Positions 1,674-7,405 of a stretch of DNA of 19,931 nt are shown here, piece after piece. The DNA is taken from the IMG/VR virus record IMGVR_UViG_2690316049_000008, positions 1 to 19,931 of that record, one strand, 5' to 3'. The stretch comes from a virus. Lineage: Duplodnaviria > Heunggongvirae > Uroviricota > Caudoviricetes. Under the pieces are notes generated by a model. It was given only the letters and a program-made list of their open reading frames with translations, searched no databases and was not told the DNA's origin. Each line of letters starts with the position of its first letter. The first letter of the stretch is position 1. The translations under genes were made by a program, and so were the position numbers.

Positions 1674-1700
1674 CCGCACGCTTATCGCGTGCGGTTTTTT
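1674..1700 (+). terminator. Rho-independent terminator (perfect 8-bp GC-rich stem, 5-nt loop, T6 tract)
   Basis: CCGCACGC (1674-1681), loop TTATC, GCGTGCGG (1687-1694), then TTTTTT (1695-1700), 7 nt after the stop of the small plus-strand ORF. On the minus strand the same hairpin lies just past the stop of the convergent membrane-protein gene but has no U-tract, so it is mainly a plus-strand terminator. Confidence 0.75.
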
Positions 1701-3060
1701 ATTTTTTAGGCAATATATAGTATATTGCCTTATATGAAAAATATACAAATGATACAGTTATTATATTTTTTAAGAAAATAAATAAAAAGAATTCAAGGCT
1801 CTCCCTTGCCATAAAAAATGAAAAAGGCATTGTCATAAGTGCAGCTATTTGTATTACGCCAACTCTCCTCATCAATATGATTTTATCAAGAAATCTAAAA
1901 ACAACGCCTGAGATAACATATGAGCACCAGAAAAAATACTTTCCGAAAATAACAAGCGATGACCCAAGCAAAGTTGATGCCATATTCAATCCATTGCTAA
2001 GACCAAGAGCACTCACGGTAAAGTAATATGAGCTATTCATTGTGACAATTGGTTTGTCAGGCCATATGAATCTTGGGATAAACCCTGAAAATTGAGTAAA
2101 GAAATAATAGATACCACCAACATTGCGATCATTGCTAAAGTATTTAACAGCTATACTCTGATAATTGATAGGAGATACGCTATCAGCTAAATATCTTACT
2201 ATAATGCCAAACAGAGAGCCAGACTCTGAAATATCAACATCTGAGTATCTCACTATAGCCATTATACCAATTAGAATTAAGCACGCAGAGCCTATGCATA
2301 TTAACTTCAATATGCCAATTAGGCCTCTAGAGTGACAAATAAGAGCAACAATAAACATTGCGGAAAACATTACATTTCTTGAGCCACCAATAAGCACATA
2401 ATATGCCATCCCAAATAACAATGACATTATAATTGATTTAACGAACACATACTTATCGTCAGATGTAATTGCATACACTATAACAGCAGAAACAAAAGAT
2501 GACATTATCATTATAATAACACCACTACCAGCATTTCCGCCAAGCTTTAAAGCATAATCATCAGAATTAAAAGATATGCCGTTTATGGCATAAAAAGCCA
2601 TCATCCCAACAAAACTTAAAAACAACGTTGTTCTTACAAATAATTTTGGGCTACCAATAAAATATTTATCAGAAAATGTTATTTTATTTCTTCCTGCCGC
2701 TGTATGAGAGAATACATAAAACAAAACTATACCAATAAACGACAACGTAGACACATCATTTATATATTGATACGGCATATATTCTGCAGAACTAACTTTT
2801 GCCCCAACTCTAAACGGAAGCGATATATACCCAAAAAAATGAGTAAAAACAAGGAATAACATCCCAACAGATTTGAATGACACGCCATGTTTTTTGAATG
2901 ACACGGCACTTAAATATATTAATGTTATGGCATACAACGCAGGTAGCACATAAGTAAAAAATGATTCATAAATATTCATAATATTGTATGTAAAAATGAC
3001 TATTTTTACCCGATCTTTAAAGAAAGTACAGGATGATAGCGCGTTTCTACGCGCCATCAT
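1699..3060 (-). CDS. Polytopic inner-membrane protein (~11-12 predicted TM helices); probable Wzy/WaaL-like O-antigen polymerase or ligase-type surface-polysaccharide protein
   Basis: ORF with stop at 1699-1701. Hydrophobic throughout, with many 18-24-residue hydrophobic segments and one longer, less hydrophobic stretch (roughly residues 275-350) that could be a large periplasmic loop, as in Wzy/WaaL proteins. Extremely AT-rich and Ile/Phe/Tyr/Asn-rich, unlike the neighbouring phage genes. Start is ambiguous: GTG 3066 (overlaps the tailspike stop as GTGA), ATG 3060 or ATG 3057. An AAGGTGA Shine-Dalgarno that contains the tailspike TGA stop sits 2 and 5 nt upstream of the two ATGs, implying translational coupling. 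The functional call is inference from topology, composition and position, not from a recognised motif. Confidence 0.8.
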   Translation of the reverse strand: MMARRNALSSCTFFKDRVKIVIFTYNIMNIYESFFTYVLPALYAITLIYLSAVSFKKHGVSFKSVGMLFLVFTHFFGYISLPFRVGAKVSSAEYMPYQYINDVSTLSFIGIVLFYVFSHTAAGRNKITFSDKYFIGSPKLFVRTTLFLSFVGMMAFYAINGISFNSDDYALKLGGNAGSGVIIMIMSSFVSAVIVYAITSDDKYVFVKSIIMSLLFGMAYYVLIGGSRNVMFSAMFIVALICHSRGLIGILKLICIGSACLILIGIMAIVRYSDVDISESGSLFGIIVRYLADSVSPINYQSIAVKYFSNDRNVGGIYYFFTQFSGFIPRFIWPDKPIVTMNSSYYFTVSALGLSNGLNMASTLLGSSLVIFGKYFFWCSYVISGVVFRFLDKIILMRRVGVIQIAALMTMPFSFFMARESLEFFLFIFLKNIITVSFVYFSYKAIYYILPKK

Positions 3061-3062
3061 AG

Positions 3063-5243
3063 TCACCTTACAACAAATTTGCCATTGCTAATGTCGTTAA
3101 CTAGTGTTGCCACTATGTTAGCAATATCCTTAGTAGATAGGGTGTTTACGTCTCCACCGCGTAACGCACCGGAATTGGTAAATGGATACTGCTGAGGTTG
3201 TGAGCTATTGGCAAACTGGTTGTTAGCCTCATAACGTTTTGTTGGTACAGGGTTGTACCCAATACTACCTGTGGTTGTGTCAGGGGCCACACAGTTCGTA
3301 ATGTTCACTATAGCGTCAGAACCACTACCATTTGTATATATTGGCCTGTTAACTGTCCCGAATGGTTGCACAGCTACCAGCCTGTTAACAATAACACTCT
3401 GTGTGGCTAGTGCTTGTAAATAAGATTCTGCGCTTCCATTGCACCCCCTCAAGTTCACATTATCAACCTCTATGTGGCGGCAGTTAATGATGACGATATA
3501 ATGCCCATTTTCTGTGTTAGGGTAAGCGCCTACTATGCGAACATTTTTTAATGTTAAATCTGTGGTTGGCACCGCAGCAGGCCCACCGTTGAAAACAAAC
3601 CCTTTTGCACCATTTACAAGTGCGTGTATCGTAATGCCGTCAAACTCGATGTCGGCAAGATTAGTCGTGGTATTGGCTGAGTTTCTCAAAAAATAAACAG
3701 CTTCAGCAGAGCAACCTGATATCAAGAAGTTAGAAAAACGCATCCTTGTGTTTTCTACCGGATAGAAGCGGCATAACAAACCCTGCGAGCAGTTACGAAT
3801 AACAACGTTATCGTAGGATACGTCACTAGCTCCTTCAATTGCGACACCTGCGTTCGAACTTTCTACATATAGTCCAGTAACTACTCCATTACGGAAATTC
3901 CCTCGAAGACCGTGGCTTTCACAGTTTTTGATTGTAACGGCGTTTATGTTAACTCTTGTGATAGCTGTGCCATCACCATAACCGTTCATAAGGTCGTCTG
4001 ACTGAATACGCAAACCGTTACCACCAGAGGTATTAATGCTCACATCGTGAATCATAAGATTAAGCGTACGGTTTGGGCGACGTGATGAGAAGAACAAAGA
4101 TGAGGCCCAAGTGTTTCTGCAACGGATATGATGGACGTGCGCCTCTGTGGGGTCATTAACAATGATCGCCATGCCAGTTCGGTTGCTGCCATCTGGATCT
4201 TGAATTTTCCCACGACCACAATCATGTGAGTACAGATTATCGGCAAGAACCCATCTCCCATAATCCATCGTTACGTTGCTATTCCATGCCCCCTGCAATT
4301 CACACCCTGAAAGCTCAAGTGTACCTGCAGATTGCATGGCCAAACCAACCCCTGGGTCAAATGAAGCATTCTGCCGATAAAAATCAAACAAGAAATTACC
4401 GACAATGCGTATATCATATGGAGTATAGTCAAACTCTTGATTTGATTCGTTCCATGTCCGTGGGGATCTGAGCCATAATTGTCTGGAATCTACCGTCACT
4501 TTTGGCAATAACGGCTTTATGAGGATGTCTCCCTGAATATTAAATATACCTTCTACAGTTACGGGAGAGTAAGCGATCCCGATATTTCCAGATAGTGGAA
4601 GTAGTCTACTAAGTTGAGCGTCATTTTGTGCAATTTTCCAACCAGAATTAACCTCGTTAAAAAATGATATTGGGTAAAGTTCAATATTATCATTAATTAC
4701 AGTTGAGTCATAACTGGTAATTGTCAATGGTGATGATAATGGTGTGCTCATCATCATAAGGGCGCCATCAAGCCTAACGAATCTTACACCTTCGGGAATT
4801 AAGTCTCCTATTTTTGCATCAATTCCAATTTTATTAGGATAAACCTCACCACCTAAAAATCCATTCATTCCTCGAAGCCAAGATAGATTTAACATGACTG
4901 ATAACTGATCTGGATCGTACTTCAGCACATTAGGGAAATAGAACTGCTGTGATCCATATGCATCGTACACAGCCATAGAATGCCATTGTACAGTAACGAA
5001 CTTAGCAATCTGTCCGTTATATACAGGGTAGCCAGCAGCGTTAATAATTATTGGTTGCGAAACGGGAATGTGAGAGCCGTCTTCGTTCTCCACATAAACC
5101 TGAATTTGGTTTTCAGGATTTACCGGGTCCGTGTCAATTTTACCGATATAAATTTTGCCATTGGCTACGGCTTTAAAAGAACGAGCCATAGTGAAGAGTT
5201 GCGAAGGCATGCTTACCACAACATTGGCTGTAATGTCTGTCAT
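3063..5243 (-). CDS. Tailspike protein with P22/Sf6-type N-terminal head-binding domain and a divergent C-terminal receptor-binding domain
   Basis: 726-aa ORF. The first ~115 residues ([46 protein letters not shown]...NVLKYDPDQ) match, from memory, the conserved head-binding domain of P22 gp9 and Sf6/HK620 tailspikes. The remainder is Asn/Gly/Ser/Thr-rich with repetitive short beta-strand-like segments, consistent with a parallel beta-helix glycanase domain. GC drops after about nt 4900. SD GGAG lies 9 nt upstream of the ATG. Confidence 0.93.
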
Positions 5244-5262
5244 TTAATTTGCTCCGGACGTA

Positions 5263-5298
5263 GCAATTCCGGACAAGATGCAACCTGTCCGGCATTGC
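5263..5298. promoter_or_regulatory. 13-bp imperfect inverted repeat (RNA hairpin or possible operator) in the 5' leader of the tailspike gene
   Basis: GCAATTCCGGACA (5263-5275), 10-nt spacer, TGTCCGGCATTGC (5286-5298), with one mismatch. A further direct copy of TCCGGAC is at 5253-5259. It lies 20-55 nt upstream of the tailspike ATG, between the last ejection gene and the tailspike. Confidence 0.3.
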
Positions 5299-5338
5299 AC
5301 TAATGTCAGTTATGATTTGTTAATTATGAGGTGAGTCT

Positions 5339-5416
5339 ATGCAAAGAGATCTGTTGAACATTGCGTTCTACATAGTTGGTTTTTGCACGTTCCTGGTGTT
5401 TGCGAAGCTATTCTGA
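5339..5416 (+). CDS. Hypothetical 25-aa hydrophobic peptide (MQRDLLNIAFYIVGFCTFLVFAKLF), antisense to the late operon
   Basis: ATG at 5339 preceded by GAGGTGA (5328-5334) at 4-nt spacing; stop TGA at 5414-5416. Overlaps the 3' end of the gp16-like gene by 9 nt on the opposite strand. The peptide is one predicted TM helix. Too short for the ORF track, no homology evidence, could be chance. Confidence 0.2.
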   Translation: MQRDLLNIAFYIVGFCTFLVFAKLF

Positions 5417-7405
5417 CAACGCATCAGACTTGGCCCCCTGAGTCAGGGCGTTAATGGCCTTTTGCGCCTGCTGCATGGCTTTCTCAAACGCTGTTGATCC
5501 GCGTGGTGTACTTGCCATTCTGAGCATTGCATTTCTGAATGGCTCGCTCTCATAGGCGCGAGTAAGAAGTCCGTAGCTTACTGCTGCGCCAGTTGTTGCA
5601 GGGTTCATTGCCGTCCCATACCCGATAATGAACGGGATGGTTTGCTGCCCTGTTGGTGTTGTTACTGCCGCTTTTGCAGCCTGCTGCGTGGATTGCAGGT
5701 AGTTTTTCAATCCTTTCAGATAAGCAGCGTCCTGCCCCTTAAATGTGATGCCAGTCTGGTTTTGCAGGATGTTAAGCTGCCGAAGGAACTGGTCAGGGGA
5801 TCCTCCAGATTTCTCCATCGCCTTTCCAATAATGCCATTGCGCATTTGCGCCCTGCCAACACGACCAACTGAGTTATACAGAGTCTTAATTTCCGATTTG
5901 TTCTTGCTGAATAGCATGTTGTTGACAACTTCCGGCGTCAGATCGCCTTTCATGAGAACATTCTTCAGCCTGGTATTCTTTAGTTTAGCCGCTTCGTCAG
6001 CGTAGACGGCATTGGCCTGCTGATATTTACGGAGAGTATCGTTGCCAAGATTCTGTCCAATGGCACCATTGATATCGTCGGTCATTGCCTTGTAAACGCG
6101 CTGAATGGCAGCATCGGAACGGTTTGGTAACACTGGTCGCTCACCCTTCACGTCCATTCTGAACTGGCTGCGCAGATCGCTTAATTGCTTCAAATCCAGA
6201 TTTACCGGACCATCAGGACCAGCATTGCGAACAAGCTCATCACGATAGGACTGAAGTTTTGAAATAGTCTCGTTATCAGCTACCTTACCAAGCTTCTGCA
6301 GATTAGATATTTCTGTATCAATCTGCTGAATTGCTCGTGCAGGCTGAATGTTTACTCCTGCCATAGCATTCTGAACCCGCTCCAGTCGATTACCTGCGGC
6401 ACGACGAATTCCTGATGTTTTCGCTTTAAGGCTGTCAATAACAACAGCTGGATCATACTCACCGAATTTATCAGCAAATCTCTGCACCAACTGGCTTCTC
6501 GCTTCCTGTTGCGTTGCTCTCATTCCGCTTGTGCCAGCCAGAGGGATATTTTCTGCTGTAGTCTGCGCCATTTTTCCGACGCGGGAAGTTGGGTGTAACA
6601 GGTCTGTGGTGTGCAGAGGAACACCTTCACGCTCTGCAAATCTGATAGCCTGCTGCGCTTCTGGCGCAATAGCACCACGAACGCCACGATAAGCAGCACC
6701 TAATCCACGTCCGGCAGCGTTAATAGCACCGCCAGCAAGTACACCAACGCCTAAATCGGTGGCGAGTGCTTCCGCATCATCTTTCGCACTATTTGCAGCA
6801 AGTGATCCAACTGCGTTTTCTGCGAGAAGGCGAGTTGCACCCTGAGCAATTCGACCAGCAAGTGTTGGTGCCTGTGTTGCAGCTCTCTCAACTCCAGCAG
6901 GAGTGAGGTAAGGCAATGCTTCAGCAAATACCCTTCCCTCTGTCGTTTGTGGAGTCAGCACGCCTTGCTGAAGGCCAAAGTCCTGCTCTAATCCCTGCGT
7001 TGTTACTCGTGGCGCTGGTTGATATGTCCCATCGCCAATGCCAAGTTTACCGCCAGCCCAAGCCGCCGCGCTTGTTACAGCATCGGCAACTGATGCAGGT
7101 ATGTTTGCCACGTTCACGCCAGCCTGTACCAGTCCGCGACCAGTCTCTTTTACTGCTTCGCCAAGATCAGACATAAATCCACTTTGCTGTGGTTGTTGCT
7201 GTGCTACTGGCTGTTGTGTCTCCACTGGCTGCACAGATGGCAATGGATAGGCAGCATAGAAAGCTTGCTTAGCCTGCTCTGCATTTTCTCCGGCTTGCGG
7301 GGCCACGACTTCATTGAAGTATTGCTCCTGAGCCTGCGCTTTTTGTTCTGGTGCTAACGCCTGATACTGTGGAGAGGCGATAACATCTTTCCATGCTTTA
7401 GCCAT
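5408..7405 (-). CDS. Ejection (injection) protein, P22 gp16-like
   Basis: 665-aa ORF, third of three consecutive ejection-protein genes in the P22 order gp7-gp20-gp16, directly upstream of the tailspike. Ala/Gln/Gly-rich low-complexity composition typical of these proteins. ATG at 7405 overlaps the upstream stop as TAATG; SD GGGGTGA. Confidence 0.8.
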   Translation of the reverse strand: MAKAWKDVIASPQYQALAPEQKAQAQEQYFNEVVAPQAGENAEQAKQAFYAAYPLPSVQPVETQQPVAQQQPQQSGFMSDLGEAVKETGRGLVQAGVNVANIPASVADAVTSAAAWAGGKLGIGDGTYQPAPRVTTQGLEQDFGLQQGVLTPQTTEGRVFAEALPYLTPAGVERAATQAPTLAGRIAQGATRLLAENAVGSLAANSAKDDAEALATDLGVGVLAGGAINAAGRGLGAAYRGVRGAIAPEAQQAIRFAEREGVPLHTTDLLHPTSRVGKMAQTTAENIPLAGTSGMRATQQEARSQLVQRFADKFGEYDPAVVIDSLKAKTSGIRRAAGNRLERVQNAMAGVNIQPARAIQQIDTEISNLQKLGKVADNETISKLQSYRDELVRNAGPDGPVNLDLKQLSDLRSQFRMDVKGERPVLPNRSDAAIQRVYKAMTDDINGAIGQNLGNDTLRKYQQANAVYADEAAKLKNTRLKNVLMKGDLTPEVVNNMLFSKNKSEIKTLYNSVGRVGRAQMRNGIIGKAMEKSGGSPDQFLRQLNILQNQTGITFKGQDAAYLKGLKNYLQSTQQAAKAAVTTPTGQQTIPFIIGYGTAMNPATTGAAVSYGLLTRAYESEPFRNAMLRMASTPRGSTAFEKAMQQAQKAINALTQGAKSDALSE

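What the first reader, a model, noticed from the sequence alone, without database searches (positions are those of the whole stretch)
5244..5338. Tailspike leader carries a 13-bp inverted repeat and three CCGGAC motifs where P22 has its immI region
In P22 the interval between gene 16 and gene 9 holds sieA, mnt, arc and ant. Here it is only 164 bp. It contains GCAATTCCGGACA, a 10-nt spacer and TGTCCGGCATTGC (one mismatch), plus an extra direct TCCGGAC copy. This could form a stable 5'-UTR hairpin affecting tailspike translation or mRNA stability, or serve as an operator for a dimeric regulator. It may also be a scar of immI loss.
Basis: seen in the sequence. Interest (0 to 1): 0.35.

Follow-up and report, generated by a model that had tools for sequence, protein, structure and literature searches.

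The report
Conserved RNA hairpin before tailspike gene
The inverted repeat upstream of this Sf6-like prophage's tailspike gene is a real RNA hairpin, conserved in the late messenger RNA only, and beside it lies an unannotated 25-codon membrane-peptide gene that may matter more than the hairpin.

Summary
The gene16-tailspike spacer is 164 bp (5244-5407). It contains GCAATTCCGGACA / TGTCCGGCATTGC at 5263-5275 and 5286-5298.

Across 35 distinct variants from related prophages the repeat behaves as a 15-bp stem with a 6-nt loop. 90.7% of cells pair, and the same stem position occurs as C-G, G-C or U-A. Conservation is strand-specific: 77 G.U cells against 5 A.C cells on the tailspike-sense strand, and 33 of 35 variants fold better there (mean -18.6 vs -11.3 kcal/mol). 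It is therefore an RNA hairpin of the late mRNA, ending 7 nt before the tailspike Shine-Dalgarno. It is not a DNA operator, and in this window it is not an intrinsic terminator because there is no U-tract.

The third CCGGAC copy is simply the Shine-Dalgarno context and is not conserved as a repeat.

The spacer is not an empty immI scar. It carries a conserved -10 box, a Shine-Dalgarno and a 25-aa membrane-peptide ORF (5339-5416, + strand). In phage BTP1 the same locus is transcribed as the "non-coding" RNA STnc6030, which excludes superinfecting phage. The published escape mutants are gp16 missense changes, as they are for P22 SieA.

What the hairpin does (mRNA stability or RBS insulation, versus attenuation) is inferred, not shown.

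The parts
5263..5298 (-). RNA stem-loop of the late (gene 16 to tailspike) transcript. The 5' arm is 5298-5284 (GCAAUGCCGGACAGG), the loop is 5283-5278 (UUGCAU) and the 3' arm is 5277-5263 (CUUGUCCGGAAUUGC). 14 of 15 positions pair, including one G.U and one G.A mismatch.
   Evidence: Searches cover its presence and stability. Searches cover covariation and strand-specific G.U pairs in 35 unique variants.
5252..5255 (-). Tailspike Shine-Dalgarno GGAG, 8 nt before the ATG (5243-5241) and 7 nt after the hairpin.
   Evidence: Sequence. GGAGCA is invariant in alignment A2.
5253..5259 (+). The third TCCGGAC copy. It overlaps the tailspike Shine-Dalgarno and is lineage-specific, not a conserved repeat.
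   Evidence: word not enriched. Searches show relatives with CCCGGAGC, GTCTGGAGC, CTAGGAGC and CCAGGAGC here.
5311..5316 (+). -10-like hexamer TATGAT (TATAAT in most relatives), 22 nt before the small-ORF ATG. There is no recognisable -35. The hairpin occupies roughly -25 to -60 relative to the guessed start site.
   Evidence: Conserved in all short-junction loci that carry a small ORF. Not called by the consensus promoter scan.
5328..5334 (+). Shine-Dalgarno GAGGTGA of the small ORF.
   Evidence: GGAGG in relatives.
5339..5416 (+). Unannotated 25-codon ORF, MQRDLLNIAFYIVGFCTFLVFAKLF. It is predicted to be a single-pass membrane peptide. It is convergent with gene 16 and overlaps its stop codon by 9 nt.
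   Evidence: translation; 49 unique DNA variants, length kept at 25 or 23 codons, and variation concentrated at third codon positions; present inside BTP1 STnc6030; in no family library or protein collection.
3063..5243 (-). Tailspike gene (N-terminal head-binding domain).
5408..7405 (-). P22 gp16-type DNA-ejection protein gene.
   Evidence: annotated as DNA transfer protein or P22-gp16 family in Sf6 and in E. coli genomes.

Best explanation
The repeat is a cis-acting RNA stem-loop of the late polycistronic mRNA. As RNA polymerase runs from gene 16 through the 164-nt untranslated spacer into the tailspike gene, nucleotides 5298 to 5263 fold into a 15-bp, 6-nt-loop hairpin of about -21 kcal/mol. 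Its 3' end lies 7 nt before the tailspike Shine-Dalgarno.

I propose that it acts after transcription as a structural bumper. It would separate the tailspike ribosome-binding site from the AU-rich spacer upstream, which is also targeted by antisense transcription. It would keep the Shine-Dalgarno single-stranded. After endonucleolytic cleavage in the spacer it would protect the tailspike segment as a 5' hairpin, and the upstream segment as a 3' hairpin. The result would be tailspike mRNA stability and translation set independently of gene 16.

Shown here: the hairpin exists; it is conserved through compensatory and G.U changes on this strand only; its distance to the Shine-Dalgarno is fixed; and a comparable sense-strand hairpin occurs in tailspike leaders of every junction type among P22-like phages. 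Inferred: the effect on stability or translation.
For: Structure and chance. Minus-strand fold -23.5 kcal/mol, z -3.1. IR pattern in 0/200 shuffles.

Conservation. Sf6 is 97% identical across the junction. 133 E. coli genomes carry the junction at full length. Salmonella g341c and BTP1 are about 75% identical.

Covariation. In 35 unique variants 90.7% of cells pair, against 33-45% when the partner column is slid by 1-3. No shuffle in 500 reaches the observed value. Pair 10/27 is C-G in 23 variants, G-C in 5, U-A in 2, plus G.U. Pairs 5/32, 6/31 and 9/28 also change on both sides.

Strand specificity. 77 G.U against 5 A.C cells. 33/35 variants fold better on the tailspike-sense strand, mean -18.6 vs -11.3 kcal/mol. 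In g341c the plus strand is indistinguishable from shuffles, z +0.13.

Independence from the neighbouring promoter. The same hairpin follows the gene-16 stop codon directly in L094 and L093, which lack the small ORF and its -10.

Generality. P22 and HK620 (CCGUAG..CUGCGG), mnt-type leaders (AUGCAAUCA..UGGUUGCAU) and a further leader type (L022, L043 and L068; the same sequence is in L086) all have a sense-strand hairpin with U.G pairs just 5' of the Shine-Dalgarno. Among 60 unique leaders the sense strand is more stable in 48, mean z -2.9 vs -1.3.

Not a terminator. In the 8 nt after the core stem (37 distinct hairpin-plus-flank variants) only 6 have 5 or more U; after the full stem none does. 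The window is not called by the terminator scan.
Against: No experiment or transcript-end data bears on this hairpin. The functional step is inference.

The sequences are related, so shuffle controls overstate significance. The number of independent substitution events behind the G.U excess is modest: 8 pair positions show G.U and 4 show A.C.

A strand-biased mutation spectrum could contribute to the asymmetry.

Some relatives (L092, L105, L117 and 6 short-junction variants) carry a true terminator-like hairpin at this position, which favours a transcriptional role.

The invariant GCAA/UUGC base of the stem shows no covariation and could be conserved for another reason.
Confidence: 0.45

Rival explanations
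1. Leaky intrinsic terminator or attenuator, a functional stand-in for P22 tANT. The hairpin would stop or pause polymerases that are not Q-modified, or a fraction of late transcripts, before the tailspike gene. This would set the tailspike dose or silence spurious transcription in lysogens.
For: P22, HK620 and CUS-3 have a canonical terminator in the tailspike leader. Published work ties P22 tail-protein level to transcription through this region (cited in PMC2629481). L092, L105 and L117 have canonical terminators exactly where this hairpin sits. 6 of 37 short-junction variants have 5 or more U after the core stem. G.U pairs make the hairpin one-directional, which would suit a terminator that must let plus-strand transcripts pass.
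Against: The window has AAUUGCUA after the core stem and UACGUCCG after the full stem, and it is not called by the terminator scan. The stem is maintained in the 31 of 37 variants that lack a U-tract. In P22-type leaders a proximal hairpin coexists with a strong terminator upstream, so the two are separate elements. Q-modified polymerase would ignore it during lytic growth (established lambdoid biology).
Confidence: 0.25
2. DNA operator for a dimeric regulator. A repressor or activator would bind the palindrome and control the divergent small-ORF promoter (the IR centre lies about 42 bp upstream of the guessed start site) and/or the tailspike gene.
For: It is palindromic. It lies immediately upstream of a conserved -10 that lacks a -35, the place where an activator or repressor site would sit. 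The homologous interval of P22 is full of operators.
Against: The DNA palindrome is imperfect at the same positions in most variants, and those mismatches are A.C on the plus strand, which is G.U on minus-strand RNA: 77 vs 5. The hairpin is retained without the promoter or small ORF in L093 and L094. There is no repressor ORF in the spacer. In mnt-type phages the Mnt-operator-like palindrome (GTACC-N5-GGTAC) is a separate element upstream of the leader hairpin.
Confidence: 0.05
3. Site for double-strand-specific processing or antisense pairing. The hairpin would be an RNase III target, or a loop that nucleates pairing between the late mRNA and the plus-strand STnc6030-like RNA that overlaps it.
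For: In BTP1 the plus strand across this junction is transcribed in lysogens. The window helix can extend to about 20 bp with bulges.
Against: The loop sequence is not conserved: UUGCAU, UUUUAU, UUAACU and UUUUAG all occur. The plus-strand partner hairpin is not conserved. P22-type versions are only 6 bp, too short for RNase III. The BTP1 upstream promoter is not conserved in the window.
Confidence: 0.1
4. Non-functional relic of recombination or of immI loss, conserved only because the junction was recently shared.
For: The junction is a known hot spot of module exchange, annotated as a 'boundary sequence' in CUS-3 and called the 'ant moron in rapid flux' in PMC2629481. Many copies are near-identical.
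Against: Pairing is kept at 75% overall DNA identity through changes on both sides and through G.U changes, across E. coli, Salmonella, Citrobacter and other hosts.
Confidence: 0.08

Closest known systems
P22 / HK620 / CUS-3 tailspike-leader elements (tANT terminator and the proximal CCGYAG-N5-CUGYGG hairpin)
   Same: Same position between the gene-16 side and the tailspike Shine-Dalgarno. The last ~30 nt of the leader are homologous (..UUGC..C[C/U]GGAGCAAAUUAAAUG). There is a sense-strand hairpin with G.U pairs.
   Different: The window has no U-tract terminator. Its hairpin is 15 bp rather than 6 bp. No ant remnant lies upstream.
Intercistronic or 5'-proximal mRNA stabiliser hairpins (ompA 5' stem-loop, the malE-malF REP hairpin, pap and puf operon hairpins, T7 RNase III-site hairpins). 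These examples are from my own knowledge.
   Same: A stable stem-loop without a U-tract sits between cistrons of a long operon, next to an AU-rich single-stranded stretch and just upstream of a ribosome-binding site.
   Different: No processing or half-life data exist here. There is no sequence relationship, and Rfam returns nothing.
STnc6030 of Salmonella prophage BTP1 (Owen et al. 2020, PMC7067206)
   Same: Same locus and the same strand as the window's plus strand. BTP1 has the homologous hairpin, -10 and small ORF. STnc6030 (D23580 403942-404727) maps to L122:703-1488 and contains all three.
   Different: STnc6030 was described as a non-coding antisense RNA. Its mapped promoter (TTGAAT-17-TTCAAT inside the tailspike gene) is degenerate in the window (CTGATA / TTCAGC). 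The hairpin is conserved on the opposite strand to STnc6030.
P22 immI operators (Omnt, Oarc)
   Same: Palindromic DNA in the gene 16 - gene 9 interval.
   Different: No Arc/Mnt gene is present. The conservation pattern is that of RNA on one strand. The Omnt-like palindrome of mnt-type relatives is a different element.
P22 SieA superinfection exclusion (Leavitt et al. 2024, PMC10883804), for the neighbouring small ORF
   Same: A gene next to the 3' end of gene 16 on the opposite strand, with a predicted inner-membrane product. Published escape mutations for SieA (gp16 G532W and P546S, of 609 aa per the P22 CDS) and for the STnc6030 clone (codons 61-73 from the gp16 C-terminus) fall in the same C-terminal region of gp16.
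   Different: 23-25 aa against 164 aa, with no detectable sequence similarity. The peptide's role is untested.

Membership tests
Rho-independent (intrinsic) terminator, P22 tANT type | G+C-rich stem-loop in the transcript | tested here: met
   15-bp stem; -20.9 kcal/mol for the 36-nt hairpin alone and -23.5 kcal/mol for the 70-nt stretch around it.
Rho-independent (intrinsic) terminator, P22 tANT type | U-rich tract (about 5 or more U in 8 nt) directly 3' of the stem | tested here: not met
   Window tails are AAUUGCUA after the core stem and UACGUCCG after the full stem. The scan does not call it. Only 6/37 family variants qualify.
Rho-independent (intrinsic) terminator, P22 tANT type | Transcript 3' ends or termination at the site | not testable with these tools
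   No transcript-end data for this prophage.
Arc/Mnt-type immI operator | Cognate ribbon-helix-helix repressor gene in the module | tested here: not met
   The only ORF in the spacer is the 25-aa peptide. An Arc/Mnt-like gene occupies this place in IME10-type phages instead.
Arc/Mnt-type immI operator | Symmetric duplex-DNA half-sites with no strand preference in how symmetry is broken | tested here: not met
   77 G.U against 5 A.C cells; 33/35 variants fold better on the minus strand.
Conserved cis-regulatory mRNA leader hairpin | Base pairs kept through compensatory and wobble changes across homologues | tested here: met
   90.7% paired, 0/500 shuffles, 4 pairs with changes on both sides.
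Conserved cis-regulatory mRNA leader hairpin | Effect on expression of the downstream gene | not testable with these tools
   Needs reporter fusions or mRNA half-life measurements.
Any curated RNA family (Rfam 15) | Covariance-model match | tested here: not met
   Only two chance-level hits, E = 2 and 8.8, far below the gathering scores.
RNase III processing site | About two helical turns (~20 bp) of dsRNA | tested here: inconclusive
   15 bp, extendable to about 20 bp with a bulge and an internal loop in the window. The extension is not conserved, and P22-type versions are 6 bp.
STnc6030 locus of BTP1 | Homologous sequence at the gene16-tailspike junction | tested here: met
   BTP1 has the same short junction: hairpin, TATAAT and a 23-aa ORF. 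The coordinates map inside STnc6030.
STnc6030 locus of BTP1 | Promoter at the mapped STnc6030 start site | tested here: inconclusive
   BTP1 has TTGAAT-17-TTCAAT. The window has CTGATA-17-TTCAGC.
SieA-like superinfection exclusion protein (small ORF) | Sequence membership (phrog_7745 / SieA) | tested here: not met
   No Pfam, PHROG or NCBIfam hit for the peptide. P22 SieA hits phrog_7745.
SieA-like superinfection exclusion protein (small ORF) | Blocks DNA entry, with escape mutations in ejection protein gp16 | not testable with these tools
   Indirect evidence only. A BTP1 clone that contains the ORF excludes BTP1, and the escapes are gp16 missense changes.

The most novel reading that the evidence does not exclude
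The hairpin marks one edge of a minimal, overlooked accessory module in phages said to have none at this site (Sf6 type). The plus-strand transcript leaving this junction would not be a non-coding antisense RNA. It would be the mRNA of an unannotated 23-25-aa inner-membrane peptide that blocks DNA entry of related phages by acting on the C-terminal region of ejection protein gp16. In that reading it is a miniature functional analogue of SieA and the true effector behind BTP1's STnc6030 phenotype. The G.U-rich, one-strand-only hairpin would then be the device that lets the late mRNA fold while the opposite-strand peptide mRNA stays unstructured.
Probability: 0.4. Interest if true: 0.7.

Novelty: new member of a known kind. 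Interest (0 to 1): 0.42.

Why it matters
The hairpin itself adds a conserved, strand-specific RNA element to the tailspike leader of P22-like phages. That region is already suspected of tuning tail-protein dose, and this gives a concrete target for testing how the last gene of a 20-kb late operon is set apart from the rest.

The more consequential point is that the "empty" gene16-tailspike junction of Sf6-type phages is not empty. It encodes a conserved peptide that is too short for gene callers to predict. The peptide lies inside the published superinfection-exclusion RNA STnc6030. It offers a simpler explanation for three features of that study: exclusion of infection but not of induction, missense escapes in gp16, and major transcripts shorter than the proposed antisense seed. 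A single start-codon mutation would decide between the two models.

Tried and rejected
- Consensus promoter and terminator scans found nothing in the spacer.
- Rfam found nothing.
- Pfam, PHROGs and NCBIfam gave no hit for the peptide.
- The exact-sequence look-up found none of five peptide variants among 15 billion proteins.
- The Sf6 genome paper is not held.
- No paper in the library describes a tailspike-leader stem-loop.
- Alternative pairing of the 5' arm with the Shine-Dalgarno-proximal GUCCGG was rejected. The motif is absent in Salmonella-type leaders and broken in some E. coli variants (GTCTGGAG, GTCAGGAG).
- A -35 for the small-ORF promoter could not be found. TTGCAC/TTGCGT at the hairpin's end is only 10 bp from the -10, and the hexamer at 17 bp is CGCAGC-like.
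- No conserved terminator follows the small ORF.
- BTP1 RNA-seq TPM values were not informative for the hairpin. Tailspike sense reads in lysogens are flat across conditions and, according to the authors, begin inside the gene.
- The Gally and VSe13 gene upstream of the small ORF is not detectably SieA: no BLASTP alignment, and it belongs to a different PHROG.

Full report
**1. What is in the window**

The window is the late region of an Sf6-like (Lederbergvirus, P22-like) prophage of E. coli. The 351 bases around the finding are 97.4% identical to Shigella phage Sf6. They are 100% identical to several E. coli chromosomes, and 133 complete E. coli genomes carry the junction at full length.

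The late genes run on the minus strand:
- a gp16-type ejection protein gene at 5408..7405
- the tailspike at 3063..5243, with a Head_binding domain at residues 1-113
- a WzyE-like O-antigen polymerase gene at 1699..3066

In P22 the homologous interval holds sieA, orf59a, mnt, arc and ant.

**2. The observation**

The arms GCAATTCCGGACA (5263-5275) and TGTCCGGCATTGC (5286-5298) are there, 12/13 complementary with 10 nt between them. The pattern never arises in 200 dinucleotide shuffles of the window. The surrounding 70 nt fold at -23.5 kcal/mol on the minus strand, z -3.1.

TCCGGAC occurs at 5253-5259 and 5268-5274, and its complement lies in the other arm. As a word it is not enriched: 3 copies in the window against 1.2 expected. 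The 5253-5259 copy overlaps the tailspike Shine-Dalgarno. On the minus strand it reads GUCCGGAG, with GGAG 8 nt before the ATG.

**3. Conservation and strand**

I collected relatives in three independent ways:
- A scan of viral contigs with a degenerate pattern for the neighbouring small ORF gave 79 loci.
- A scan with a pattern made only of invariant hairpin positions gave 96 matches across all loci held. 85 of these are followed by a tailspike start, and they comprise 35 distinct 36-nt hairpins.
- A protein-based search for the head-binding domain in one genome per bacterial species gave 34 loci from Escherichia, Citrobacter, Xenorhabdus, Yersinia, Serratia and others.

On the 35 distinct hairpins a 15-bp stem with a 6-nt loop is paired in 90.7% of cells. 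When the partner column is slid by 1-3 the figure is 33-45%. No shuffle in 500 reaches the observed pairing or covariation score. Pair 10/27 is C-G in 23 variants, G-C in 5 and U-A in 2. Pairs 5/32, 6/31 and 9/28 also change on both sides.

The departures from Watson-Crick pairing are strongly one-sided. On the tailspike-sense (minus) strand 77 cells are G.U and only 5 are A.C. Read on the plus strand, those 77 would be A.C mismatches. Accordingly 33 of 35 variants fold more stably on the minus strand, mean -18.6 against -11.3 kcal/mol. In Salmonella phage g341c the plus-strand fold is no better than shuffles (z +0.13), while the minus strand gives -21.7 kcal/mol.

Close E. coli variants of the window's own type (L029, L038, L044, L065, L130, L146) keep 14-15 of 15 pairs on the minus strand through G.U changes.

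This is the signature of an RNA structure in the gene 16 to tailspike transcript. It is not the signature of a protein-binding DNA palindrome or of a plus-strand RNA. One caveat applies: the sequences are related, and G.U occurs at 8 pair positions against 4 with A.C. The number of independent events is therefore modest.

**4. It belongs to the tailspike leader**

In Citrobacter sp. NCU1 (L094) and in L093 the same hairpin follows the gene-16 stop codon within about 20-40 nt. Neither has a small ORF or a -10 box in between.

Other junction types have their own sense-strand hairpin just 5' of the Shine-Dalgarno, each with U.G wobbles on the tailspike-sense strand:
- P22 and HK620: CCGUAG-N5-CUGCGG, downstream of the tANT terminator
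- mnt-only E. coli phages: AUGCAAUCA-CAUCA-UGGUUGCAU, downstream of an Omnt-like palindrome GTACC-N5-GGTAC
- a further type: GCUAGCAAU-GAAU-AUUGCUGGC

Over 60 distinct leaders the sense strand is the more stable in 48, mean z -2.9 against -1.3. The 3' flank (..UUGC..C[C/U]GGAGCA) is homologous between the window and P22.

**5. What it is not**

*Terminator.* It is not a canonical terminator here. The tail after the core stem is AAUUGCUA and after the full stem UACGUCCG, and the scan does not call it. Only 6 of 37 distinct hairpin-plus-flank variants have 5 or more U in the 8 nt after the core stem, and none after the full stem. The stem is nevertheless maintained in all of them. On the other side, L092, L105 and L117 have true terminators at exactly this spot, and P22 biology links this region to tail-protein dose (PMC2629481). 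A leaky attenuator role therefore stays a serious rival.

*Operator.* The strand asymmetry argues against this. So does persistence of the hairpin without the neighbouring promoter, the absence of any repressor gene, and the separate Omnt-like element in mnt-type phages.

*Three-motif idea.* In relatives the Shine-Dalgarno context reads CCCGGAGC, GTCTGGAGC, CTAGGAGC or CCAGGAGC. Neither the repeat nor an alternative pairing with it is conserved.

*Known RNA family.* Rfam has nothing.

**6. Most likely mechanism**

I commit to a post-transcriptional role. The hairpin would be a stable stem-loop that insulates the tailspike ribosome-binding site from the AU-rich untranslated spacer. It would also act as a protective end structure after cleavage in that spacer. 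Together these would set tailspike mRNA stability and translation. My confidence is about 0.45.

The structure, its strand, its conservation and its fixed 7-8-nt distance to GGAG are shown. The effect on expression is inferred. The rivals are attenuation (0.25), RNase III or antisense pairing (0.1), relic (0.08) and DNA operator (0.05).

**7. The spacer is not an empty scar**

On the plus strand, 40 nt beyond the hairpin, lies an unannotated ORF at 5339-5416: MQRDLLNIAFYIVGFCTFLVFAKLF. It is preceded by GAGGTGA and by a -10-like TATGAT (5311-5316), which is TATAAT in most relatives.

I found 49 distinct DNA versions. All keep 25 codons (E. coli type) or 23 codons (Salmonella type, MERDLLNFAFLIFGLVVGKLLFA), and variation is concentrated at third codon positions: 13 against 7 and 5 sites, and 19 against 11 and 6.

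In most phages the same ORF sits at the far end of a larger module, directly after an Arc/Mnt-like gene (IME10 type) or after another gene (Gally, VSe13). In a few loci the same promoter and Shine-Dalgarno slot holds unrelated short ORFs. No record annotates the ORF. It matches no family and is absent from a 15-billion-protein collection. The literature describes this module as absent from Sf6 (PMC2629481).

**8. Link to published work**

BTP1, a P22-like Salmonella prophage, has the same short junction: hairpin, TATAAT and a 23-aa ORF.

Owen et al. 2020 (PMC7067206) reported STnc6030, a 786-nt RNA abundant in lysogens. It is antisense to the tailspike 5' end and the gene-16 3' end. They called it non-coding because no ORF exceeded 60 aa. 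Expressed from a plasmid, it gives complete immunity to BTP1 infection but does not affect prophage induction. All four distinct escape SNPs are missense changes within a 36-bp stretch near the 3' end of the gp16 gene. The main Northern species are about 480-500 nt, not 786 nt.

Using their coordinates, STnc6030 maps to L122:703-1488. It therefore contains the hairpin region and the whole small ORF (1110-1181). The escape region maps to 1352-1389, which is codons 61-73 from the gp16 C-terminus. If the 480-500-nt species start at the mapped start site, they would end just after the small ORF and would not reach the proposed antisense seed.

Leavitt et al. 2024 (PMC10883804) showed that P22 SieA blocks DNA injection. 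SieA is an inner-membrane protein encoded at this same place and on this same strand. It is escaped by gp16 G532W and P546S (of 609 aa, from the P22 CDS), together with gp20 changes.

The parallel suggests that the peptide, not antisense pairing, is the exclusion effector. This is a hypothesis. The promoter mapped in BTP1 is degenerate in the window, and nothing shows that the peptide is made.

**9. Verdict**

The RNA-hairpin reading is supported, and sharpened to one strand. The operator and three-motif readings are not supported. The "scar" reading is only partly right.

The hairpin is a new member of a known kind, a conserved leader or intercistronic mRNA stem-loop, and is of moderate interest. 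The neighbouring peptide gene and its bearing on STnc6030 are the most interesting by-product, and they can be tested with one mutation.

Noticed in passing
window 5339-5416 (+): An unannotated, conserved 25-codon ORF for a predicted single-pass membrane peptide, with its own Shine-Dalgarno and -10. It lies inside the locus published as the non-coding superinfection-exclusion RNA STnc6030 in BTP1. The published escape mutants are gp16 missense changes in the same C-terminal region as P22 SieA escapes.
   Followed up: partly
L137, L154/L169, L181 (viral contigs), upstream of the hairpin: The same promoter and Shine-Dalgarno slot next to the hairpin carries unrelated short ORFs in some phages (for example MGVKHKFIDAVKGLAFVFF.., MKNKIVSCLKTIAFIIMM.., MNGNERYNLKLKEL..). 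The slot behaves as an exchangeable mini-cassette.
   Followed up: no
L003/L006-type loci (IME10-like), tailspike leader: In mnt-only modules the Omnt-like palindrome (GTACCATTTCGGTA) and a Pant-like region face the tailspike gene directly, with no arc or ant. An Mnt-type repressor may therefore control a promoter that reads straight into the tailspike.
   Followed up: no
window 5231-5243 and 5301-5313: An 11/13 direct repeat, TAATGTCTGTCAT / TAATGTCAGTTAT. One copy contains the tailspike start codon and the other lies just upstream of the hairpin on the late strand, so the two bracket the hairpin-bearing leader. It is not seen in Salmonella-type junctions and may be chance or a recombination trace.
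   Followed up: no
window 1699-3066 (-): A WzyE-like O-antigen polymerase gene overlaps the tailspike stop codon, as with hkcF in HK620. It is probably a serotype-conversion gene.
   Followed up: partly
window 12985-12968 (-) and 1674-1694 (+): Canonical intrinsic terminators. One follows the coat gene inside the late operon (AAGGGGCTTACGCCCCTT + T-run). A strong one (CCGCACGC..GCGTGCGG + TTTTTT) follows the 118-aa ORF at 1311-1667.
   Followed up: no
two viral-contig loci (not identified by id; peptide listed): In two loci the small ORF reads through its usual stop to 50-52 aa (MQRDLLNIAFYIFGFCTFLVFSKLFRQRIRL..), running further antisense into gene 16.
   Followed up: no
L120 966-1481 and L121 996-1481: In phages Gally and VSe13 the small ORF directly follows a 161-171-aa gene of unknown function (phrog_6067). 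That gene occupies the sieA position but shows no detectable similarity to P22 SieA (phrog_7745).
   Followed up: partly
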